Virus record (IMG/VR): IMGVR_UViG_646564533_000012
Source: a virus
Lineage: Duplodnaviria; Heunggongvirae; Uroviricota; Caudoviricetes
Strand: one strand, 5' to 3'
Length of the DNA stretch: 35,548 nucleotides
The notes under the pieces were generated by a model that saw only the letters and a program-made list of their open reading frames with translations, did not search any database and was not told where the DNA came from. The first letter of the stretch is position 1. Every line of letters begins with the position of its first letter. The translations under genes were made by a program, and so were the position numbers. This document shows, one piece after another, positions 1 through 35,548 of this stretch.

Positions 1-61
1 GGTATCCGTTCTGCTGAAGTGTCATGGCGTTGATTTTACGGTGACTCTTCGACAGTGAAAA

Positions 62-92
62 GAAAAAAGGCCGCAGAGCGGCCATAAACACA
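62..92 (-). terminator. putative rho-independent terminator downstream of the int-cargo operon
   Basis: GGCCGC-N3-GCGGCC hairpin followed by a T-run when read on the minus strand; coordinates approx. Confidence 0.35.
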
Positions 93-189
93 AACAAAAA
101 TCAATAAGTTAGATAATTATCAAAGACTTACAGACACACAAAAACACAGCCAACCACAACAAATAACAGGGATGTGGTCACTTTGTGGA

Positions 190-606
190 TCATTCGCTCC
201 CCTCTTTTTCCTTATTTCGTTGAACGCCAATTGCGACACACGTACTAAGCAAATCTTTACATTTCTCTACGTCTTCAGACTTACGCAATTTGATGCTTTT
301 TACAGACTGCGGGCTACTGTCCGTAGCACGATACATCGTTATTTCAATATCATTTCGGTCTAAGAGTCCCATAATGGCTTTTGCAACCTCCACACCCTTC
401 TTCGCGAAATCAAAGAACAGAGCAAGTTTATATGGATTTTCGACGGAAAAAACTTCAATTTTGCTAAAACCAACATCGTGTCGAGAAAAATATTGCTCAA
501 CCTCATCTCGAAGTTCTGGATCGCAGACAATGTCTATTCTCCAGTACTGACCTAAATGCAAATCGCTATTAACTGTTTTTTCCACAACATCCTCCTTACC
601 CAGCAA
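190..606 (-). CDS. hypothetical protein, AT-rich cargo gene coupled to int
   Basis: 138-aa track ORF whose start overlaps the int stop; strong AAGGAGG sits at the int stop, with an in-frame GTG about 5 nt downstream (alternative start near 585); visibly lower GC than the phage core; no recognisable motif. Confidence 0.55.
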   Translation of the reverse strand: MLGKEDVVEKTVNSDLHLGQYWRIDIVCDPELRDEVEQYFSRHDVGFSKIEVFSVENPYKLALFFDFAKKGVEVAKAIMGLLDRNDIEITMYRATDSSPQSVKSIKLRKSEDVEKCKDLLSTCVAIGVQRNKEKEGSE

Positions 607-1570
607 TAGGATTAAATCTCACCGCATCCTGCAAGTAATCCGGCGCAAGATGGGCATAAATCATCGTTGTCTGAATCTTTGCGTGCCCCAGAATTTTCTG
701 GAGCGTCAGAATATTGCCGCCGTTCATCATGAAATGACTGGCGAAGGTGTGGCGCAGCGCATGAACAGCCTGGCCGTCAGGAACATCAGGTGCGACCGTT
801 TTGATGACATCGCGAACCAATGGATAATCCAGCGTCGGAAACACCAGTTTCCCGCCCCGTTTTTTGATCTTTTCAAACAGGCTTTCAGAAATAGGAACGG
901 TACGGTTTTTGCTGTTCTTCGTTTTTGAAAAAGTGATTCGACAATGAAGAACACGGCGCTGCTCCAGTGCCGCTACCTCGCCCCATCGCGCCCCGGTCGA
1001 CAGAAGGATTTCGACAGCCAGCCGTTCATCGGGATTTTCAGCCAGTGCATCCAGCAACTGAACACATTCAGACTTACTCAGATATCCCATTTCGCGCTCG
1101 TTAACCTTCATTCCTTTAAGGCCTTGAACGGGGTTATCGTTAAGAAAATGGCCGGATGAGATGAGTGCGGTAAACATCGCGCTTAACGCCCCAATCTCTC
1201 GATTTATGGTGCTGGGCTGTATCCCCTGCTCTATCCTGGACACACGTAGCTCGGTGAGCATCGTTGTATTAAGTTTATGCACGCACGGGTCATCCATTGC
1301 CTCACTCAAGCGCAGCAATTTAAGGCGCGTGTTATGCCCTGACTTCATTAGCTGACCGTGGTATTTCCACCACAAGTCAATAAGCACTGACAGCGGACGG
1401 CGATCAATGGAGTTTCCTTTCCACTCATTGTTATGCTGTTGCGCCAGCACCCACCGCTCATATAAAACTGCATCCGATTTCGTTTTAAATTTTTTACGAA
1501 TGCGTTTGCCTTTACGCCCCTCCGGGCGCATGTCAAGAAGATATCCTCCCGGAATTGATTTTATGCTCAT
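596..1570 (-). CDS. int: site-specific tyrosine integrase (P2 Int family)
   Basis: Track ORF 596..1720 trimmed to the internal Met (MSIKSIPGG...); N-terminus and C-terminal HALRHTFASHF / LGH...T..YAH region align with P2 Int as I recall it. Confidence 0.93.
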   Translation of the reverse strand: MSIKSIPGGYLLDMRPEGRKGKRIRKKFKTKSDAVLYERWVLAQQHNNEWKGNSIDRRPLSVLIDLWWKYHGQLMKSGHNTRLKLLRLSEAMDDPCVHKLNTTMLTELRVSRIEQGIQPSTINREIGALSAMFTALISSGHFLNDNPVQGLKGMKVNEREMGYLSKSECVQLLDALAENPDERLAVEILLSTGARWGEVAALEQRRVLHCRITFSKTKNSKNRTVPISESLFEKIKKRGGKLVFPTLDYPLVRDVIKTVAPDVPDGQAVHALRHTFASHFMMNGGNILTLQKILGHAKIQTTMIYAHLAPDYLQDAVRFNPIAG

Positions 1571-1619: not shown

Positions 1620-1928
1620 TTAGCCGGGCTGTGTGCCAGTCTTGCGGGGTTTTTGAGAAGGCGATGTGCTTTTTGGCCCATCAGGGGAGAGAGACGGACT
1701 GATCTGCCCAGCAGCCTCATTTGTTTTTCCCGTCATAAGCCAATTCATGTACTTAAAAAAGCGAGGGTGATTAACAATCTTGATAAGCACTTCGCCCCCT
1801 ATGTTTTCAATCCGCCCCGTTTCATAACGACGCAAAGTGCCGATAGGCACATCAATCAGGCCGCAAAATTCTTCGCGCGTTAAATCCTCTGATTCACGAA
1901 TCACTCTAATTTTTTCACCGATAAGCAT
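1620..1928 (-). CDS. C: immunity repressor (P2 C-like HTH protein)
   Basis: Track ORF trimmed to Met13 (MLIGEKIRV...), about 103 aa; HTH segment and C-terminal FFKYMNWLMTG...GQISP resemble P2 C; divergent from the early operon. Confidence 0.85.
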   Translation of the reverse strand: MLIGEKIRVIRESEDLTREEFCGLIDVPIGTLRRYETGRIENIGGEVLIKIVNHPRFFKYMNWLMTGKTNEAAGQISPSLSPDGPKSTSPSQKPRKTGTQPG

Positions 1929-2024: not shown

Positions 2025-2303
2025 ATGGCAAAAGTCCTGAACACACACGAACAGGCAGACTTTGAGCGTTTAGCAGCGTTCTATCCCTACCGCGATGAGC
2101 ATGGGTTACCAGTACTTGAAGAAAGCCTGAAAGATTACGCAAAGCGTACCAACCAAGCTGTTAACACAGTGAAAAGACAGGCTGACAGAGGTTCAATTCC
2201 CATCAACCAGGATGAAAAGAACTCAAGACGCACAGTAAATCTCTTCGCTCTTTTCCTGAAAACAATCAGGAGCGCAGAAAAATACGTGCAGATGACAAAA
2301 TAA
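2025..2303 (+). CDS. Cox/Apl-position small DNA-binding protein (excisionase/regulator candidate)
   Basis: 92-aa first gene of the rightward early operon, divergent from C; assignment is positional, I do not see clear similarity to P2 Cox. Confidence 0.5.
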   Translation: MAKVLNTHEQADFERLAAFYPYRDEHGLPVLEESLKDYAKRTNQAVNTVKRQADRGSIPINQDEKNSRRTVNLFALFLKTIRSAEKYVQMTK

Positions 2304-5623: not shown

Positions 5624-8460
5624 GTGAGTTTGCATGGAGCTGGAATGAACCACGGCCAGCCATTGATCCGGCCAGATTTACGGAGCACAGGCAGGAAACT
5701 GAAACCGACCTACAACGCGCCATCCGTTACTACCTTGAGGCAGACAAAAAGGCTCTGGAAGAACAGGAAGCGAAGGAGGAAGCCTTTTTCGCACAATCCA
5801 CCGTGGGTAAAAAACTCATGGCATCCCTTGAGGAAGCCGGACAGCGTGAAAAGCTGGCACAAAGCATCATCAGCAAGCGTCAGGCAACAGAACAAGACCC
5901 GGTGGCCCGTGCTTTTGCCACACTGAAGGTGCTTCCCGTTTATCTGCGTGAACCTCTGAGCCGCCACCTCTCTTTCCTGCGCAAAAAACAGGAAGCCGAT
6001 CGCCAGAAAGGCAAAAAGAGCTGGCAGGCTGAACGCTACGCGCGCGGAACCCTGCGCAAAATATTCGAACGCCTGGACCGCACCGATCACCGCTGGCTGA
6101 CACCGGGTTATCGCTCCCTTGCCGGACGCGAACGCCTGGACGATTTGCTTTACCTGCCGCAGCTCAACAAACACCAGATACAGACGCTGGCCACCATGAC
6201 GGCGGCGATGTTCAGCAGCACCTTCGAAAAACTCTGCGATGGCTTTGGTGCGACTGATGGCGAACTGACCATGGATGTAACGCTGAAGGCGTATCAGATG
6301 CTGGCCCGCATGGCGTTACACCTGCACGCCATGCCTCCACATTATGACGCACTGACAACAGACAAAGACCGGAGGAACGAACCGGACACGGAGCTGCTGC
6401 CGGGCGCAACCCTTCGCCTGACCTGTGCGGAATGGTGGAAACGCAAACTGTGGCTGTTACGTTGCGAGTGGAGAGAAGAACAACTCCGCGCCGCCTGTCT
6501 GGTTTCCAGAAAAACATCACCCTATCTGAGCCAGGACGCGTTAAGCGAGTTTCGCGCACAGCGCGAGAAAACACGCGATTTCCTGAAAAGTTTCATGCTG
6601 GAAAACGAAGACGGGTTCACGATTGATCTCGAGACAGTGTATTACGCGGGAGTAAGTAACCCGGTTCACCGTAAGGCAGAAATGATGGCCACCATGAAGG
6701 GGCTGGAACTTCTGGCCGAAGCCCGTGGCGACAAAGCGGTGTTTCTGACTGTCACCTGCCCGTCAAAATACCACGCCACAACAGAGAACGGTCATCCGAA
6801 TCCCAAATGGAACGGGGCCACCATGCGCGACTCCAGCGATTACCTGGTTAACACGTTTTTTGCGGCGGTCCGCAAGAAACTGAACCGCGACGGCCTGCGC
6901 TGGTATGGCATCCGCACAGTGGAGCCTCACCATGACGGCACCGTGCACTGGCATATGATGGTCTTTGCTCATCCGGAAGAAATCGACACCATTGTGTCCC
7001 ACACCCGCGATATTGCCATTCAGGAAGACCGCCACGAGCTGGGCAATGATATTACTCCGCGCTTTAAGGTGGAGTATGTCGACGGCTCAAAAGGCACGCC
7101 AACCAGCTACATCGCCACCTACATCGGAAAGAACCTGGACAGCCGCGCCGTGGATGGCATCGACCCGAAAACGGGCAAGCCACGCGTTGACCACGAAACC
7201 GGAAAATCAATGGCCGAGAGCGTGGAACGCGCCATCGGCTGGGCACGCCTTCACCGGGTCCGCCAGTTCCAGTTCTTTGGCATCCCCTCCCGTCAGGTAT
7301 GGCGTGAACTCCGCCGCCTTGCCAGCCAGATGGCACGCAACCCGGAAGGCCCACAACGGCTGAAGGATGATGCAATGGATGCGGTACTCGCTGCCGCTGA
7401 TGCCGGGTGTTTTGCCACCTACATTGAGAAACAGGGCGGCGTACTTGTTCCACGCAAAGACTACCTGATTCGCACCGCCTACGACCTCGCAGATGAGCTG
7501 AACGATTACGGCGAACAGAGCGTACAGATTTACGGGATCTGGTCACCACTCATCGGGGAATCCTCCCGTGTGTGCACGCACCCGGATAACTGGAAGCTGG
7601 TAAGACGTAAACCGGAAGCGGAAGACAGCACCCGCGAAAATGGTTTTGACCTTCAGGGCGGCCCTGCCGCCCCTTGGACTCGTGGCAATAACTGTCCCCG
7701 TGTACAGGAAACGGACAACAACGGGACAGAACAGCCGGAAGAACGGCCAGCACCGTGGCCGCAGCTCCCTGACGGCGTTGATGTGGATGAATGGATGCGC
7801 TCACTGAAACGGCACGAACGCCGGGCGCTGATGCGTTCGCTTCGTGACAAACAGGCAAAAAACAGCAGTGATGAAATGCAGAGCTGGACACAGAGCCGCA
7901 AACAGCAGCGGCCTTTGCCTGATAACCACGAATTACTCGCTAAAGAATGGCGGGAGTCTGCTGAATCTCTCGGCCTGCATATCGGTGAACAACAGATGCA
8001 GCACCTGTTACGGGGCGGCAGTCTGTACGTTGACGGCAGCATCATTGCACCGCAGGGATTTGAAATTGTACGCAAACCGGATACCCGCCCGGACAGCCGA
8101 ATCACGCAGCTCTGGCAGCGCCTGAGCCGTAATCATGGCGTAAGCAGCACGGAGATCCGCCATAACCCGGTCGCCAGCTATCTGACACAGCTGGAGGCAT
8201 CAGACCCTGAAGCCGCCGCACGCCTGGCATCCACACTTCAGCAGGACCAGAACACCATGAAAACACCCGTTACCGTGCTTTCTGACATGCTGCGCGCCAT
8301 CCGCGACGCAGAGCACGCACAGAGAATCAGTGAAACCACTGAACGCGCCCGCCGCAAAGCAGACCTGCTGCGGGGTGGCCTGACCAGTGGAAACAAAAAA
8401 CAGACAGAAACGGGACTCACGAATCCCGCAAATGAGCAAAAAACGCGCAGCGATATATGA
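5620..8460 (+). CDS. A: replication initiation endonuclease A (rolling-circle, HUH superfamily)
   Basis: Track ORF trimmed to MSEFAWSW; HUH-type motif HWHMMVF and paired catalytic tyrosines in TPTSYIATYIGK; about 946 aa with a long low-complexity C-terminal extension. Confidence 0.93.
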   Translation: MSEFAWSWNEPRPAIDPARFTEHRQETETDLQRAIRYYLEADKKALEEQEAKEEAFFAQSTVGKKLMASLEEAGQREKLAQSIISKRQATEQDPVARAFATLKVLPVYLREPLSRHLSFLRKKQEADRQKGKKSWQAERYARGTLRKIFERLDRTDHRWLTPGYRSLAGRERLDDLLYLPQLNKHQIQTLATMTAAMFSSTFEKLCDGFGATDGELTMDVTLKAYQMLARMALHLHAMPPHYDALTTDKDRRNEPDTELLPGATLRLTCAEWWKRKLWLLRCEWREEQLRAACLVSRKTSPYLSQDALSEFRAQREKTRDFLKSFMLENEDGFTIDLETVYYAGVSNPVHRKAEMMATMKGLELLAEARGDKAVFLTVTCPSKYHATTENGHPNPKWNGATMRDSSDYLVNTFFAAVRKKLNRDGLRWYGIRTVEPHHDGTVHWHMMVFAHPEEIDTIVSHTRDIAIQEDRHELGNDITPRFKVEYVDGSKGTPTSYIATYIGKNLDSRAVDGIDPKTGKPRVDHETGKSMAESVERAIGWARLHRVRQFQFFGIPSRQVWRELRRLASQMARNPEGPQRLKDDAMDAVLAAADAGCFATYIEKQGGVLVPRKDYLIRTAYDLADELNDYGEQSVQIYGIWSPLIGESSRVCTHPDNWKLVRRKPEAEDSTRENGFDLQGGPAAPWTRGNNCPRVQETDNNGTEQPEERPAPWPQLPDGVDVDEWMRSLKRHERRALMRSLRDKQAKNSSDEMQSWTQSRKQQRPLPDNHELLAKEWRESAESLGLHIGEQQMQHLLRGGSLYVDGSIIAPQGFEIVRKPDTRPDSRITQLWQRLSRNHGVSSTEIRHNPVASYLTQLEASDPEAAARLASTLQQDQNTMKTPVTVLSDMLRAIRDAEHAQRISETTERARRKADLLRGGLTSGNKKQTETGLTNPANEQKTRSDI

Positions 8461-21719: not shown

Positions 21720-22320
21720 TTCGTTGTTACCACCATCAGCCAGCAATTTCATGCGTTGTGCCGAAGCCGTCGGAACACGCATTACAGACATTCCGGTAGA
21801 CCTCAACACGCTGTGGTCGCCGGACACCTGCCCGGTGCATCTGCTGCCTTATCTCGCCTGGGCGTTTTCCGTTGACCGCTGGGATCGCAACTGGCCGGAA
21901 GAGACAAAGCGACAGGTGATTCGTGATGCCTGGCTGATACACCGACACAAAGGGACCATCAGCGCACTGCGAAGAGCCGTGGAGCCTCTCGGCTACCTGA
22001 TTGAAGTAAAGGAGTGGTGGCAACTCAACGAGGAGCCAGGAACATTTCGCATTGTTGTCGGAGTACTTGATCAGGGCATCACCGATGAAATGTATCAGGA
22101 ACTTGAGCGCCTTATTGCGGATGCAAAACCAGTAAGTCGCCATCTGACGGGGCTGGCGATCAGCCTGAGTGTGAACGGAAAGATTTTCGTTGGTACGGGA
22201 TGCTATCACGGCGATGCCCTGACGGTTTATCCCTACACCCCGGAGTCCATTATTGTCGAAGGGGATTATTTCCCTGCCCCAGCCATTCATTTAATTGATA
22301 ATCTGAGAGTAAACGCATGA
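21712..22320 (+). CDS. I: baseplate / tail protein I
   Basis: Track ORF trimmed to MSNSLLPP, overlapping the J stop. Confidence 0.82.
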   Translation: MSNSLLPPSASNFMRCAEAVGTRITDIPVDLNTLWSPDTCPVHLLPYLAWAFSVDRWDRNWPEETKRQVIRDAWLIHRHKGTISALRRAVEPLGYLIEVKEWWQLNEEPGTFRIVVGVLDQGITDEMYQELERLIADAKPVSRHLTGLAISLSVNGKIFVGTGCYHGDALTVYPYTPESIIVEGDYFPAPAIHLIDNLRVNA

Positions 22321-23672
22321 CAGTGAAATACTACGCCATTCTGACTAATCAGGGCGCGGCACGACTGGCTAACGCGACGATGCTCGGCAGTAAGCTGAAT
22401 CTGACGCAAATGGCCGTTGGTGATGCAAATGGTGTGTTACCAACACCAGACCCTGCACAAACAAAACTGATTAACCAGAAACGCATTGCACCGCTGAATC
22501 TTCTGAGTGTTGACCCTAACAATCAGAGCCAGATTATTGCGGAGCAAATCATCCCTGAAAACGAGGGAGGATTCTGGATCCGTGAGATTGGTCTTTATGA
22601 TGATGAAGGTGTACTCATTGCGGTGGCAAACTGCCCGGAAACGTACAAACCGCAGTTGCAGGAAGGCAGTGGACGCACCCAGACTATCCGCATGATTCTG
22701 GTTGTCACGAACACCGAAGCCATCACGCTGAAAATCGACCCGTCTGTGGTTCTGGCAACCCGCAAATATGTGGATGACAAAATCTCAGAGCACGAACAGT
22801 CACGACGTCACCCGGACGCCTCGCTGACCGCAAAAGGTTTTACTCAGTTAAGCAGTGCAATTAACAGTGAATCAGAAACACTGGCCGCAACACCGAAAGC
22901 GGTTAAGGCTGCATATGACCTGGCTAACGCGAAATATACTGCCCAGAACGCCACCACAACACAAAAAGGGATTGTTCAGCTCAGTAGCGCCACGAACAGC
23001 ACGTCTGAAACGCTGGCAGCGACACCAAAAGCTGTTAAGGTGGTAATGGATGAAACGAACAAGAAAGCACCATTAAACAGCCCGGCACTGACCGGAACGC
23101 CAACAACACCAACAGCGCCACAGGGGACTAATAATACCCAGATCGCAAGCACAGCTTTCGTTATGGCCGCGATTGCCGCACTTGTAGATTCGTCACCTGA
23201 TGCACTGAACACGCTGAACGAACTGGCTGCGGCGCTGGGCAATGACCCGAATTTTGCGACCACCATGACTAACGCGCTTGCGGGTAAGCAACCGAAGGAT
23301 GCCACCCTGACGGCGCTGGCGGAGCTTGCTACATCAGCAGATAAACTCCCATATTTTACAGGGGCAGATCGTGCCGCGTTAACCGCGTTGACAAGTGTTG
23401 GACGTGCCATTCTTGGTAAAACCAGCACTCAGGGCGTTCTTGATTACCTTGGTTTGGGGGAAGGCTCTGCGCTGCCCGTTGGTGTGCCCGTTCCATGGCC
23501 CTCAGCCACGCTGCCAACGGGGTGGCTGAAATGTAACGGCGCAGCATTTTCTTCTGAAATGTACCCCAATCTGGCAAAGGCCTACCCCACCAATAAATTA
23601 CCGGATTTACGGGGAGAATTTATTCGTGGCTGGGATGATGGACGCGGTGTGGACATGGGAGAGCATTATTAA
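22317..23672 (+). CDS. H: tail fiber protein H (constant N-terminal part fused to a frameshift-truncated C-terminal cassette)
   Basis: Conserved N-terminus MTVKYYAILTNQGAARLANA; internal SETLAATPKAVK repeats; enters the shared cassette block GLGEGSALPVGVPVPWP at 23451, then terminates early (…GVDMGEHY). Confidence 0.88.
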   Translation: MTVKYYAILTNQGAARLANATMLGSKLNLTQMAVGDANGVLPTPDPAQTKLINQKRIAPLNLLSVDPNNQSQIIAEQIIPENEGGFWIREIGLYDDEGVLIAVANCPETYKPQLQEGSGRTQTIRMILVVTNTEAITLKIDPSVVLATRKYVDDKISEHEQSRRHPDASLTAKGFTQLSSAINSESETLAATPKAVKAAYDLANAKYTAQNATTTQKGIVQLSSATNSTSETLAATPKAVKVVMDETNKKAPLNSPALTGTPTTPTAPQGTNNTQIASTAFVMAAIAALVDSSPDALNTLNELAAALGNDPNFATTMTNALAGKQPKDATLTALAELATSADKLPYFTGADRAALTALTSVGRAILGKTSTQGVLDYLGLGEGSALPVGVPVPWPSATLPTGWLKCNGAAFSSEMYPNLAKAYPTNKLPDLRGEFIRGWDDGRGVDMGEHY

Positions 23673-23881
23673 GCAGCCAAGAGGCTACAAATTTTTCTCA
23701 GCGTGCCGGAAATATAGGCGATGGTGCGGGCCACGCAATTAATTTTCATGATGGCATAGTCGGAAATCAGCCAGGATTTTCACGATTTAATTTCACCAGT
23801 AACTCTGTAGGCGATGGTATAAATTTTGTTGCTGTCAGGCCGCGAAATATCGCATTTAATTACATCGTAAGGGCAGCATGA
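23673..23881 (+). pseudogene. out-of-frame remainder of the H-attached tail-fiber cassette (type E copy)
   Basis: Downstream sequence encodes the rest of the cassette (…IAFNYIVRAA) in another frame; matches the intact inverted copy at 25969..26400 except for one A missing in GACAATGGG. Confidence 0.6.
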
Positions 23882-23888
23882 AAACGTT

Positions 23889-24395
23889 GGTTTGGGGGAA
23901 GGCTCGGCGCTGCCCGTTGGTGTGCCCGTTCCATGGCCTTCAGCCACGCCGCCAACGGGGTGGCTGAAATGTAACGGTGCAGCATTTTCTTCTGAAATGT
24001 ACCCCAATCTGGCAAAGGCCTACCCCGCCAATAAATTACCGGATTTACGGGGAGAATTTATTCGCGGCTGGGATGATGGGCGCGGGGTGGATGCTGGCCG
24101 CGCTTTGCTTAATTGGCAGCCACACACAATTTTGGATCATGCACACTATATGGAATTATGGACCGGGGATGGACTTGCCGCGGGAAGTACACGGGAAGGA
24201 GTAAACCCTGGAATACTGGCTACATACGGGGACGGGGGAATAGTTAAAACAGACGAACCCGGTTTAAAGGTGCCTTCCTCACTACGAGCCATTAGCTCTC
24301 GTAATGTAAAACGGTTTGGTGAAATTAGTGGAAATGTAGGTACAGAAACTCGCCCTCGCAACGTTGCATTTAATTACATCGTAAGAGCCGCATGA
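23889..24395 (+). CDS. alternative tail-fiber C-terminal cassette B (promoterless in this orientation)
   Basis: Begins with the shared block GLGEGSALPVGVPVPWPSATPPTGWLKCNGAAF, unique middle, shared C-terminus ETRPRN.AFNYIVRAA. Confidence 0.7.
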   Translation, partial: GLGEGSALPVGVPVPWPSATPPTGWLKCNGAAFSSEMYPNLAKAYPANKLPDLRGEFIRGWDDGRGVDAGRALLNWQPHTILDHAHYMELWTGDGLAAGSTREGVNPGILATYGDGGIVKTDEPGLKVPSSLRAISSRNVKRFGEISGNVGTETRPRNVAFNYIVRAA

Positions 24396-24402
24396 AAACG
24401 TT

Positions 24403-24882
24403 GGTTTAGGAGAAGGTTCTGCACTGCCCGTTGGTGTGCCCGTTCCGTGGCCCTTAGCAACACCACCAACGGGCTGGCTGAAATGTAACGGTGCAGCATT
24501 TTCTTCTGAAATGTACCCCAAACTGGCAAAAGCCTACCCCACCAATAAATTACCAGACTTACGCGGTGAATTTATCCGTGGCTGGGATGATGGGCGAGGA
24601 ATTGATGCGGCACGCGCTTTATTGAGCATTCAAAACGGGATGTTGGAAAAACACCGCCATATTGTTGTAGCTAACGATGGATATGACACAAAAGATGAAT
24701 GGGAGTTGGCTACGATTTTCAAAAAAACATATACACAAGGCAGGGGGCTTGATGCCACAAATACAGGAGGGAGTTTGATTCCATCACCAACGCTTCATTC
24801 ACGAGGAAGTATTGGTAACACAGGTGGTAGTGAAACCCGCCCCCGCAATATTGCATTTAACTATATCGTGAGGGCGGCTTAG
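24403..24882 (+). CDS. alternative tail-fiber C-terminal cassette C
   Basis: Same shared N-terminal block and C-terminal tail with a distinct, AT-richer variable middle. Confidence 0.7.
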   Translation, partial: GLGEGSALPVGVPVPWPLATPPTGWLKCNGAAFSSEMYPKLAKAYPTNKLPDLRGEFIRGWDDGRGIDAARALLSIQNGMLEKHRHIVVANDGYDTKDEWELATIFKKTYTQGRGLDATNTGGSLIPSPTLHSRGSIGNTGGSETRPRNIAFNYIVRAA

Positions 24883-24888
24883 TTATAT

Positions 24889-25500
24889 TCAACTGGCTGC
24901 TGCCAGTGGTATTTCCGGCAAGTTGATATCTGGTGCCATGTTTATATCCATTGCGTTCAGCGCGTCTATATAATCCAGCACGGCATTAAGCCGGGTGGTT
25001 TCTGCCTGCGTCAACTTCCGCCCGGCCTGCAACTTCAACTGAATCAGACTTATGGAAGCCATTGCCGCATCAGCCAGTGACTGGCGCTTGGTTTCTGCCG
25101 CTTCTACTGCGGCACGATGTTGTGCCTCAGTATCTGTCACCCATTTTTCACCATCCCATTTATCGTATGGTGTGAACGGGGCGATAGTGGTTGTATTTTT
25201 CGGGTAGTCACCCAGCGCCGTGATTTCTTCGGTGTTTCCCGTGTCAGTGCTATAGACGGTTTCACCACGATGGTCTGGCGCATACTCCCATGAACTTAAA
25301 TTCTCCGAACGGCGGATAGCATAGCCCGCTTTATGTGCGCCCGGGGCATCTAAACAGGAATTTGCCGGAATACCGACACCCACAGCAAGATATTCAGTTG
25401 ATTCGGAAATATATTCCCGTGTCTCACCATCATAGTTATAAACGACGATGTTTCCTGCCTGTACGGCAATAAGGTCATCATTTAATATCGCGTTATTCAT
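24889..25500 (-). CDS. tail fiber assembly chaperone (Tfa / gpG-like)
   Basis: 203 aa, convergent with cassettes B and C and directly downstream of cassette D on the minus strand; typical Tfa-type sequence. Confidence 0.8.
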   Translation of the reverse strand: MNNAILNDDLIAVQAGNIVVYNYDGETREYISESTEYLAVGVGIPANSCLDAPGAHKAGYAIRRSENLSSWEYAPDHRGETVYSTDTGNTEEITALGDYPKNTTTIAPFTPYDKWDGEKWVTDTEAQHRAAVEAAETKRQSLADAAMASISLIQLKLQAGRKLTQAETTRLNAVLDYIDALNAMDINMAPDINLPEIPLAAAS

Positions 25501-25958
25501 TATGCGGTTCTCACAATATAATTGAAGGCAATATTGCGTGGGCGGGCTTCATTCCCCCCTGAGGATTCCGTTCTGTATTGACTGGTAAATCTACCGTTAA
25601 TTGCACCTTGCCGGACGGCGTTATCTGTCGACAACAGACTATCCCCTCCTTTGTCATTTGGCACCAGTACCGTGTTATCCCACGCGTCCCATGACCGAAT
25701 ATTATGATAATGACTTCCTGTTAACCACCCCTGCATGCTTAAGATGCCCCTTCCGGCATCCACCCCGCGCCCATCATCCCAGCCACGGATAAATTCACCG
25801 CGTAAGTCTGGTAATTTATTGGTGGGGTAAGCCATTGCCAGTCTGGGATACATTTCAGAAGAAAATGCTGCGCCGTTACATTTCAGCCACCCCGTTGGCG
25901 GCGTGGCTGAGGGCCATGGAACAGGTACACCAACAGGCAGTGCAGAGCCTTCCCCCAA
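25500..25958 (-). CDS. alternative tail-fiber C-terminal cassette D
   Basis: Shared N-terminal block on the minus strand, unique middle, shared C-terminus; stop overlaps the tfa start. Confidence 0.7.
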   Translation of the reverse strand: MGEGSALPVGVPVPWPSATPPTGWLKCNGAAFSSEMYPRLAMAYPTNKLPDLRGEFIRGWDDGRGVDAGRGILSMQGWLTGSHYHNIRSWDAWDNTVLVPNDKGGDSLLSTDNAVRQGAINGRFTSQYRTESSGGNEARPRNIAFNYIVRTA

Positions 25959-25968
25959 ACCAACGTTT

Positions 25969-26454
25969 TCATGCTGCCCTTACGATGTAATTAAATGCGA
26001 TATTTCGCGGCCTGACAGCAACAAAATTTATACCATCGCCTACAGAGTTACTGGTGAAATTAAATCGTGAAAATCCTGGCTGATTTCCGACTATGCCATC
26101 ATGAAAATTAATTGCGTGGCCCGCACCATCGCCTATATTTCCGGCACGCTGAGAAAAATTTGTAGCCTCTTGGCTGCTTAATAATGCTCTCCCATTGTCC
26201 ACACCACGTCCATCATCCCAGCCACGAATAAATTCGCCCCGTAAATCCGGTAATTTATTGGTGGGGTAGGCCTTTGCCAGATTGGGGTACATTTCAGAAG
26301 AAAATGCTGCGCCGTTACATTTCAGCCACCCCGTTGGCAGCGTGGCTGAGGGCCATGGAACGGGCACACCAACGGGCAGCGCAGAGCCTTCCCCCAAACC
26401 AACGTTTTCGTCTTTATCCCTACCTATACCAACTATGTATTTTTCACGAAACAA
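25969..26454 (-). CDS. alternative tail-fiber C-terminal cassette E (intact copy of the cassette fused to H)
   Basis: Shared block starts at 26400; the track ORF extends upstream to 26454 (MFREKYIVGIGRDKDENV); sequence equals the H-attached cassette apart from the 1-nt indel. Confidence 0.7.
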   Translation of the reverse strand: MFREKYIVGIGRDKDENVGLGEGSALPVGVPVPWPSATLPTGWLKCNGAAFSSEMYPNLAKAYPTNKLPDLRGEFIRGWDDGRGVDNGRALLSSQEATNFSQRAGNIGDGAGHAINFHDGIVGNQPGFSRFNFTSNSVGDGINFVAVRPRNIAFNYIVRAA

Positions 26455-34956: not shown

Positions 34957-35217
34957 ATGTTCCGTTGTCCGCTTTGTGGCGCATCTGCCCGTATCCGCAC
35001 CAGTCGTCCGGAAAATGATTCAAACACCGTGCGGCAAAAGTATTACCAGTGTAACAACCTGGAATGCGGCGTATGCTTCTCAACACTGGAAGCTTTCCAT
35101 AAATTCACATCGAAACACGCCTCCGGCATCCACTCTTCAGAAGGTATCCCGTGGCATGAGCTGCCAGCTTCACACAGGGGAAACAATCAGATGAGCTTGC
35201 CTTTACCTCAGAATTAA
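34957..35217 (+). CDS. ogr: late transcription activator Ogr/Delta family zinc-finger protein
   Basis: MFRCPLCGASARIRTSR...YYQCNNLECGVCFSTLE matches the P2 Ogr C-X2-C...C-X4-C pattern; AAGGGAGG upstream. Confidence 0.9.
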   Translation: MFRCPLCGASARIRTSRPENDSNTVRQKYYQCNNLECGVCFSTLEAFHKFTSKHASGIHSSEGIPWHELPASHRGNNQMSLPLPQN

Positions 35218-35277
35218 CAGGCAGAATTGCCGGAGTAACAAAAAAGCGATAGATTACGCGCGGGTGCCTTTCGGCTG

Positions 35278-35490
35278 ATGGTCGGAGGGAATACCCGAAG
35301 GCCAGATGTGGAAAGGCCCCGGAAAACATCTCTGTTTAACCGAGGCCCTAACCGCATTACCTTGACAAGTGAAAGGTTAGCGCCTCTCCGGAAAAGGAGC
35401 AAGTGCTATGTCGCAAAAATCGCTTACGGCCATCACGTTCTGCGTGACGGCAATCCTCATCATCTGGATGTTGCACGGTTCGCTGTGTGA
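35278..35490 (+). CDS. mok-like overlapping reading frame of the hok locus
   Basis: 70-aa ORF starting upstream of and overlapping the hok-like frame, as in hok/mok/sok loci. Confidence 0.35.
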   Translation: MVGGNTRRPDVERPRKTSLFNRGPNRITLTSERLAPLRKRSKCYVAKIAYGHHVLRDGNPHHLDVARFAV

Positions 35491-35548
35491 AATACGGATG
35501 AGCTTCTGGGGAGCGGAGTTTGCGGCGTTCTTACAGTGTAAGCAGTAA
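35408..35548 (+). CDS. hok: Hok/Gef-family type I toxin (46 aa)
   Basis: MSQKSLTAITFCVTAILIIWMLHGSLCEIRMSFWGAEFAAFLQCKQ: one TM helix then the SLCEIR...AAF signature of Hok/Gef toxins; below the track cut-off; stop is the last codon of the window. Confidence 0.6.
   Translation: MSQKSLTAITFCVTAILIIWMLHGSLCEIRMSFWGAEFAAFLQCKQ

What the first reader, a model, noticed from the sequence alone, without database searches (positions are those of the whole stretch)
190..606. AT-rich unknown gene translationally coupled to the integrase
Canonical P2 has no gene between int and the attachment site. Here a 131 to 138-aa AT-rich ORF begins inside the last codons of int behind a consensus AAGGAGG and is followed by a terminator, so it is expressed with int in the lysogen. 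No family is recognisable; it is a candidate lysogenic-conversion, defense or integration-accessory factor.
Basis: partly seen in the sequence, partly recalled or inferred. Interest (0 to 1): 0.55.

Follow-up and report, generated by a model that had tools for sequence, protein, structure and literature searches.

The report
Unknown cargo gene beside prophage integrase
A small gene of unknown function sits in a swappable cargo slot between the integrase and the attachment site of a P2-like prophage of E. coli; the slot is already known, and the protein is uncharacterised and probably helps the lysogen, perhaps against other phages.

Summary
The ORF is real. It is a 131-aa gene (GTG 585 to TGA 190, minus strand), 40% GC against 49% for int. 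Its AAGGAGG box overlaps the int stop codon. The 138-aa TTG start is not conserved.

The window starts in E. coli DNA just upstream of btuC. P2-type Int arm repeats (173-192) abut the ORF stop codon, so the gene lies just outside attP.

The gene is under purifying selection (dN/dS 0.20-0.25). It belongs to PHROG 14142, about 68 clusters, all Enterobacterales and all unnamed. It occurs in 158 of 5426 complete E. coli genomes.

Sampled sister prophages with 99% identical Int and the same attP carry an unrelated two-gene cassette in the same slot. Distant relatives lie on the other side of attP, convergent with hok or ogr, not next to int. This argues for swappable cargo rather than an integration factor.

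The predicted fold is only weakly beta-grasp-like, and no defence model matches. Two published surveys already describe this region as a minor P2 hotspot.

Verdict: a new member of a known kind. Function is unknown, with lysogen protection as the best guess. Modest interest.

The parts
1..56 (.). Host E. coli DNA immediately upstream of the btuC start codon, which lies just left of position 1. It includes a promoter-like site on the minus strand at 61..33.
   Evidence: Positions 1-83 match 5425 of 5426 complete E. coli genomes. btuC ends at locus position 6000, the base before window position 1.
57..83 (-). Attachment core at attL, which is also the ihfA intrinsic terminator hairpin (stem 69-83, T tract 59-68). 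It is the only terminator-like site downstream of the ORF.
   Evidence: The host match ends at 83. The same 25-27 nt recur at attR next to ihfA in strain EC43. The empty site in MG1655 has ihfA, this hairpin, then btuC. The terminator scan is.
84..172 (.). AT-rich spacer of the P' arm of attP (33% GC). By analogy with P2 it would hold the Cox-binding region.
   Evidence: The stretch is conserved at 95-100% in 300 E. coli genomes whatever the cargo. The core-to-arm distance is 90 nt here and 87 nt in the annotated P2 record.
173..192 (+). P2-type Int arm-binding direct repeats, TGTGGTCA ctt TGTGGATCA. The second repeat overlaps the ORF stop codon.
   Evidence: The pattern is unique in the window, with none found in 100 shuffles. 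The published P2-type consensus is tgTGGaCa, as direct repeats on both arms (PMC3448106). The P2 P' arm reads TGTGGACActgTGTGGACA. The repeats are conserved in all cargo variants and in Salmonella.
190..585 (-). The gene: 131 aa, about 15 kDa, pI 5.3, no membrane segment, PHROG 14142.
591..597 (-). Shine-Dalgarno box AAGGAGG. It overlaps the int stop codon and lies 5 nt upstream of GTG 585.
   Evidence: Read directly from the sequence. The 10-nt gap is conserved in homologues.
596..1570 (-). P2-type tyrosine integrase (324 aa). Its last 3-4 codons belong to the variable cassette.
   Evidence: Pfam Int_N and Phage_integrase hits. It is 99% identical to Int of prophages with other cargo, differing only at the C-terminal residues.
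1620..1928 (-). C-type HTH immunity repressor, the first gene of the presumed lysogenic C-int-ORF transcript.
   Evidence: The P2 record shows the Pc promoter upstream of C.
2025..2303 (+). Cox-like excisionase/repressor at the canonical position, so the directionality factor is already accounted for.
   Evidence: phrog_575 'Cox-like excisionase and repressor', E 1.1e-7.
35262..35548 (+). hok/sok locus after ogr, on the other side of attP. In the circular phage it is the convergent neighbour of the ORF.
   Evidence: Pfam HOK_GEF for 35408-35548. Rfam sok at 35262-35421, E 1.3e-9. attR lies about 250 nt beyond the window.

Best explanation
The 131-aa ORF is a horizontally acquired accessory (cargo) gene. 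It occupies the variable slot between int and the P' arm of attP in a P2-like prophage inserted at the ihfA terminator upstream of btuC.

Inferred, not shown:
- It is the third cistron of the lysogenic transcript C-int-ORF.
- It is translated from a ribosome-binding site that overlaps the int stop codon.
- The transcript ends at the hairpin that doubles as attachment core and ihfA terminator.

The product is a small, soluble, mildly acidic alpha/beta protein with no recognisable catalytic motif, so it most likely acts by binding a partner.

My best guess for its role is protection of the lysogen against other phages (superinfection exclusion or defence), as for other cargo of P2 hotspots.

Confidence differs by step. 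I put about 0.85 on 'swappable cargo gene in the int-att slot, co-expressed with int', and about 0.35 on the defence role. The overall figure reflects the whole statement.
For: Real, selected gene:
- dN/dS is 0.20-0.25 against E. coli and Salmonella homologues at dS 0.6-1.2.
- The match to PHROG 14142 is full-length.
- About 68 clusters exist across Enterobacterales.
- The AlphaFold model is confident, pLDDT 80.8.

Foreign composition: GC 40% against 49-53% for its surroundings.

Exact slot: the att core is at 57-83 and the Int arm repeats at 173-192, touching the stop codon. The geometry matches annotated P2.

Swappable:
- 300 E. coli genomes share this attP arm, and 158 of them carry the ORF.
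- Four sampled genomes without the ORF carry a zinc-ribbon protein (phrog_4293) plus a coiled-coil membrane-anchored protein instead.
- In three of those four Int is intact and 99% identical, and two of them share the same C repressor protein accession as EC43. The fourth (K_EC180) is a decayed prophage with a truncated int.
- The cassette edges fall at the last codons of int and at the stop codon beside the arm repeat.

Coupling: the gap between the int stop and the first cargo gene is 2-10 nt in all variants, with a Shine-Dalgarno box inside or over the end of int.

Literature: the int-att interval is reported to hold 3% of P2 defence systems (PMC13586616). A third P2 hotspot between a tail protein and CI has also been reported (bioRxiv 10.1101/2024.10.15.618418).
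Against: - There is no experimental or transcript evidence.
- No PADLOC, Pfam or NCBIfam hit.
- Neither a window-type nor a major-clade query matches any of 50,697 sequenced phage records or 72,556 plasmids. It is therefore not yet seen in a phage shown to be viable.
- The simple promoter scan did not even detect Pc, so it says nothing about internal promoters.
- The defence role rests on guilt by location only.
Confidence: 0.4

Rival explanations
1. Integration or excision accessory factor. The protein would modulate Int or Cox at attP, for example by stabilising the prophage or biasing directionality.
For: It always lies next to attP. In circular phage order it is always downstream of int and co-directional with it: int-ORF-attP in this window, int-attP-ORF in other lineages. 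Its translation start is tightly placed after int.
Against: - P2 lacks it.
- Sampled prophages with 99% identical Int and the same attP arm carry unrelated cargo.
- A Cox-like factor is present at the canonical place.
- The protein is acidic (pI 5.3) with no HTH or other DNA-binding signature.
- In most lineages integration separates it from int by the whole prophage.
Confidence: 0.08
2. Counter-defence or establishment factor. It would be made from the Pc transcript of the incoming circular phage and would help it survive host defences or settle as a lysogen.
For: It lies downstream of int in the circular order in all lineages examined. Several copies have no consensus promoter of their own and a hairpin just upstream. 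It is small, mildly acidic and non-enzymatic, as many anti-defence proteins are (general knowledge).
Against: The 2026 survey found few anti-defence genes in P2 elements (PMC13586616). One relative has a divergent intergenic region that could hold its own promoter (L057). There is no similarity to any known anti-defence protein in the libraries searched.
Confidence: 0.15
3. Lysogenic-conversion factor acting on host physiology or virulence rather than on phages.
For: It is present in pathogenic lineages: O104:H4 outbreak strains, O111 STEC and O127:H6 EPEC. Conversion genes classically sit next to att sites (general knowledge).
Against: It is also present in commensal, animal, food and soil isolates. 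It has no signal peptide, membrane segment or effector-like feature. It is also found in plant-associated Pectobacterium and in Enterobacter and Citrobacter.
Confidence: 0.1
4. Component or modulator of the neighbouring hok/sok killer locus.
For: It is convergent with hok at about 150 nt in several lineages. Across attP it is also the neighbour of hok in this phage.
Against: Many family members have ogr or tail genes instead of hok as neighbour. hok/sok systems are self-contained, and a sok-like RNA is present here.
Confidence: 0.05

Closest known systems
Cargo of the P2 hotspots (old/tin between gpA and gpQ; Z/fun among the tail genes)
   Same: AT-rich accessory genes sit at a fixed position of a P2-like genome. 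They are exchanged between otherwise near-identical phages and are thought to be expressed from the prophage.
   Different: The slot differs (int to P' arm of attP). There is no sequence or fold relation. This is a single small protein without an enzymatic domain, and its phenotype is untested.
Minor 'integrase-att site' defence hotspot of P2-like prophages (PMC13586616), and the 'tail protein-CI' hotspot found by iLund4u (bioRxiv 10.1101/2024.10.15.618418)
   Same: The same interval of the genome. Here it is shown at base resolution for the ihfA/btuC-integrating lineage.
   Different: Those surveys counted recognised defence systems. This cargo is not recognised by PADLOC v2, and neither paper's text as read here discusses this family.
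Morons and lysogenic-conversion genes next to att sites of temperate phages
   Same: An extra gene of deviant composition at a prophage end, followed by a terminator.
   Different: No promoter of its own was found. It appears to ride on the int transcript, whereas a classical moron has its own promoter.
Beta-grasp (ubiquitin-like, PB1, UBX, ThiS) domains

Membership tests
PHROG 14142 (phage protein family of unknown function) | Significant full-length match to the family profile | tested here: met
   E 2e-69, residues 8-135 of the 138-aa form against profile positions 1-128 of 128. Distant relatives P0013 and P0012 hit the same profile.
Cargo of the P2-like int-att hotspot | Lies inside the prophage, between int and the attachment site | tested here: met
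   att core at 57-83, arm repeats at 173-192, ORF at 190-585, int at 596-1570.
Cargo of the P2-like int-att hotspot | Replaced by unrelated genes in otherwise near-identical prophages | tested here: met
   Int is 99% identical and the attP arm is the same, with phrog_4293 plus a coiled-coil membrane protein in place of the ORF.
Cargo of the P2-like int-att hotspot | Composition deviates from the phage backbone | tested here: met
   GC 40.2% (GC3 36%) against 49.2% (GC3 53%) for int.
Known anti-phage defence systems | Match to a model of a described defence protein | tested here: not met
   No PADLOC v2.0.0 hit at E up to 10. Systems described after 2023 could not be tested.
Known anti-phage defence systems | Confers resistance to phage when expressed | not testable with these tools
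   Needs plating assays.
Moron (Hendrix definition) | Own promoter upstream and terminator downstream | tested here: inconclusive
   A terminator is present at 83..59. No promoter-like site was found inside int, but the scan also missed Pc.
Recombination directionality factor (Cox/Xis/Apl type) | Small basic DNA-binding protein with an HTH or winged helix | tested here: not met
   pI 5.3. No HTH family hit. Fold matches are beta-grasp-like, not winged helix. A Cox-like gene is present at 2025-2303.
Beta-grasp / ubiquitin-like fold | Clear structural match to beta-grasp domains | tested here: inconclusive

The most novel reading that the evidence does not exclude
The family may be an att-flanking gene whose expression is rewired by integration. 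In circular phage order it always lies downstream of int on the same strand. In this lineage it stays with int after integration. In most relatives attP lies between int and the gene, so integration cuts it off from the int transcript and places it behind a co-directional host gene (raiA, dsbB, mlaA or fabF), often with only a hairpin and no promoter upstream. That would make it a sensor or effector of the integrated versus free state, loosely comparable to lambda sib retroregulation, and possibly a new single-protein exclusion system.
Probability: 0.1. Interest if true: 0.6.

Novelty: new member of a known kind. Interest (0 to 1): 0.3.

Why it matters
If the protein turns out to protect lysogens, it would add a small, domain-less family to the defence repertoire. 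It is carried by P2-like prophages of clinically important E. coli (O104:H4, O111, EPEC).

It would also support mining the int-att slot, where both cargo types seen here (this gene and the zinc-ribbon/coiled-coil pair) are uncharacterised.

The base-level map of the slot shows how tightly cargo can be packed against attP without disturbing it: the cassette runs from the last codons of int to a stop codon that overlaps the Int arm repeat.

As it stands, this is an ordinary hypothetical cargo gene in a hotspot that has already been described.

Tried and rejected
Searches that found nothing useful for function:
- Pfam, NCBIfam and PADLOC on the protein, and Pfam on 43 family members. The latter gave only chance-level hits such as LytR_C, ACT_9 and EACC1 at E 0.03-0.2.
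- Profile searches of PDB sequences.
- tblastn against 50,697 phage records and 72,556 plasmids, with both the window protein and a major-clade member: no match.
- A scan of 185,579 species-representative genomes found only 2 loci.
- The full HMMER scan of 1.84 billion representatives found 12 proteins. One is a 2029-aa repeat protein that I judged spurious.
- A literature search for the RefSeq accession found nothing.

Ideas rejected:
- The att core lies inside the ORF. It lies at about 57-83.
- The 138-aa TTG start. That frame holds a stop codon in Salmonella.
- A coding alternative on the plus strand. The plus-strand ORFs at 172-363 and 290-550 are not annotated, and the minus-strand frame is the one that is conserved.
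- An obligate link to hok. Several lineages lack it.
- An RDF role.

Full report
**Observation.** A minus-strand ORF runs from 606 (TTG) or 585 (GTG) to the TGA at 190-192. RefSeq annotates the 131-aa GTG form as a hypothetical protein directly after a phage integrase. The ORF is 40.2% GC (GC3 36%), against 49.2% (GC3 53%) for int and 52.8% for the window. AAGGAGG lies at 591-597. It overlaps the int stop codon (596-598) and sits 5 nt upstream of GTG 585. In Salmonella the homologous gene starts with ATG at the position of GTG 585. The frame that would give the 138-aa form reads TAG there, while the 10-nt gap after the int stop is conserved. The gene is therefore 131 aa and starts just after int, not inside it. 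A terminator-like hairpin follows on the minus strand (stem 83..69, T tract).

**Where the window sits.**
- Positions 1-83 match 5425 of 5426 complete E. coli genomes. The btuC start codon lies one base left of the window.
- In a prophage-free genome the order is ihfA, this hairpin, then btuC.
- At the far end of the same prophage in strain EC43, the same 25-27 nt (gaaa[a]gaaaaaaggccgcagagcggcc) recur next to ihfA.
- The attachment core is therefore about 57-83, and it is the ihfA terminator.
- At 173-192 lies TGTGGTCA ctt TGTGGATCA. This pattern is unique in the window and absent from 100 shuffles. It matches the published P2-type Int arm consensus tgTGGaCa, which occurs as direct repeats (PMC3448106), and the annotated P2 P' arm TGTGGACActgTGTGGACA.
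- The core-to-arm distance is 90 nt here and 87 nt in P2.
- In P2 the P' arm lies inside the 3' end of int, and nothing separates int from attP. Here the second arm repeat overlaps the ORF stop codon.
- The extra gene is thus inserted exactly between int and the outer edge of attP.

**It is a real gene.**
- Against E. coli (78% aa identity) and Salmonella (60%) homologues, dN/dS is 0.20-0.25 at dS 0.6-1.2. For int it is 0.08.
- PHROG 14142 (unknown function) matches at 2e-69 over its whole length.
- A first search of 5.8 billion proteins found only 10 relatives. A profile search found 68 clusters, all Enterobacterales: Escherichia, Salmonella, Citrobacter, Enterobacter, Klebsiella/Raoultella, Yokenella, Kosakonia, Pectobacterium, Yersinia and Pantoea. 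All are unnamed and most are 126-138 aa.
- HMMER over 1.84 billion representatives found 12 proteins.
- The conserved positions are H10, C21, F33, C45 (V in this protein), the block I71-M-G-L-L-x-R-x-D-x-E-I-E83, T88, K99-L-R101, D105, C109 and L112.
- The gene is present once, chromosomally and next to int, in 158 of 5426 E. coli genomes. These include O104:H4 outbreak strains, O111 STEC and O127:H6 EPEC, as well as animal, food and soil isolates.
- Neither the window protein nor the major-clade member P0013 matches any of 50,697 phage records or 72,556 plasmids. The family occurs in only 2 of 185,579 species-representative genomes.

**The slot is a cargo slot.**
- Three hundred E. coli genomes carry this attP arm, and 158 of them have the ORF.
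- Four sampled genomes without it (MS8345, two O157:H7 strains, K_EC180) carry two genes instead.
- Those genes are diverged versions of one module: a CxxC...CxxC zinc-ribbon protein (phrog_4293) and a coiled-coil protein with a C-terminal hydrophobic anchor. They are also AT-rich. They have no convincing PADLOC or Pfam assignment.
- Int of the three with an intact int is 99% identical to the window's, differing only in the last 3-4 residues. In K_EC180 the prophage is decayed and int is truncated. The C repressor carries the same protein accession in EC43, MS8345 and one O157 strain.
- Sequence identity between variants breaks at the last codons of int on one side. Those codons carry each cassette's own Shine-Dalgarno box, 2-10 nt from the first cargo start. 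On the other side it breaks at the stop codon next to GTGGATC.
- The int-att interval has been reported as a minor defence hotspot of P2-like prophages, holding 3% of their systems (PMC13586616). A third P2 hotspot "between a tail protein and CI" has also been reported (bioRxiv 10.1101/2024.10.15.618418).

**Relatives elsewhere.**
- Only the clade that integrates upstream of btuC (at least 60% identity, E. coli and Salmonella) has the gene right after int.
- All more distant members examined lie at the opposite prophage end. The order there is host gene (fabF, raiA, dsbB or mlaA), terminator/att core, arm repeats in inverse orientation, a hairpin, then the ORF reading inward. It is convergent with hok (about 150 nt away) or ogr (33-88 nt away).
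- Rewritten as circular phage, these are int, attP, ORF, then hok/ogr pointing back. The window is int, ORF, attP, then hok/ogr pointing back. hok/sok and ogr are at 34957-35548.
- The gene therefore belongs to the att-proximal accessory region, not to int.
- In some copies only about 20 nt separate the upstream hairpin from the start codon, and no consensus promoter is found. One copy has a divergent methylase gene and a 300-nt intergenic region. How those copies are transcribed remains open.

**Mechanism.**
- Shown: position, boundaries, selection, swappability and tight spacing after int.
- Inferred from P2: transcription from Pc as C-int-ORF in the lysogen (the Pc annotation is; that int lacks its own promoter is from my own knowledge), with the transcript ending at the core hairpin.
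- Inferred from location only: a lysogen-protective role, which I put at about 0.35.

**Rivals.**
- An integration accessory (0.08). It is contradicted by the cargo swap with identical Int and attP, by the Cox-like gene at 2025-2303, and by the acidic, non-DNA-binding character of the protein.
- A counter-defence or establishment factor made from the circular phage (0.15).
- A host-directed conversion factor (0.10).
- A hok partner (0.05).

**Verdict.** The gene is a new, uncharacterised member of a known kind, namely cargo of a described P2 hotspot, and interest is modest.

Noticed in passing
window 35262-35548 (and about 250 nt beyond the window end, seen in L003 2000-2290): A complete-looking hok/sok locus lies between ogr and attR. 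The Hok/Gef ORF is at 35408-35548 and a sok-like RNA at 35262-35421 (E 1.3e-9, below Rfam's gathering score). This is a second att-proximal cargo on the other arm of attP.
   Followed up: partly
L002 4209-5008; L005 3610-4648; L006 3609-4284; L007 3599-4637: Sampled sister prophages with the same attP arm carry a two-gene module in place of the ORF (int is 99% identical in three and truncated in L006). It consists of a CxxC...CxxC zinc-ribbon protein (phrog_4293) plus a coiled-coil protein with a C-terminal membrane anchor (phrog_9415-like; one copy annotated DUF1640). It is uncharacterised and has no convincing PADLOC hit.
   Followed up: partly
window 1-124, minus strand: There is a weak Rfam match to the enterobacterial sRNA STnc540 (22.5 bits, gathering score 38). 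It spans the host ihfA-btuC spacer, the att core and the start of the phage arm. If the match is real, the insertion would split that sRNA locus.
   Followed up: no
window 22317-26454: A tail-fibre gene (451 aa) is followed by four extra Collar-domain C-terminal cassettes on both strands and a tail-fibre assembly gene. Direct repeats of 235-267 nt occur at 23402-24620 and 25736-26409. This looks like an invertible or shuffling tail-fibre tip region. No invertase was identified.
   Followed up: partly
L030 + L061 (IMG/VR UViG 2778261161_000003): One 15.7-kb provirus contig holds two paralogues of the family. A window-type copy follows int at one end. A major-clade copy, cut at residue 72 by the contig edge, is convergent with hok/ogr at the other end.
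   Followed up: partly
L014 6400-6700 and L020 7000-7300: Downstream of the family gene there is about 1 kb without called genes. It is rich in short repeats (CCGTCACA / TGTGATG motifs) that look like iterons or operators.
   Followed up: no
L017 6750-6900, L018 6560-6710, versus L057 1226-2017: A decayed fragment of a DNA methyltransferase (DPFMGSGTT motif) lies upstream of the family gene in two Salmonella loci. The same gene is intact and divergent in L057. This is evidence of cargo turnover in this region.
   Followed up: no
window 33-61, minus strand: A promoter-like site (TTTTCA-17-TAAAAT) overlaps the T tract of the att-core terminator, just upstream of btuC. It is host sequence and remains intact in the lysogen.
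   Followed up: no
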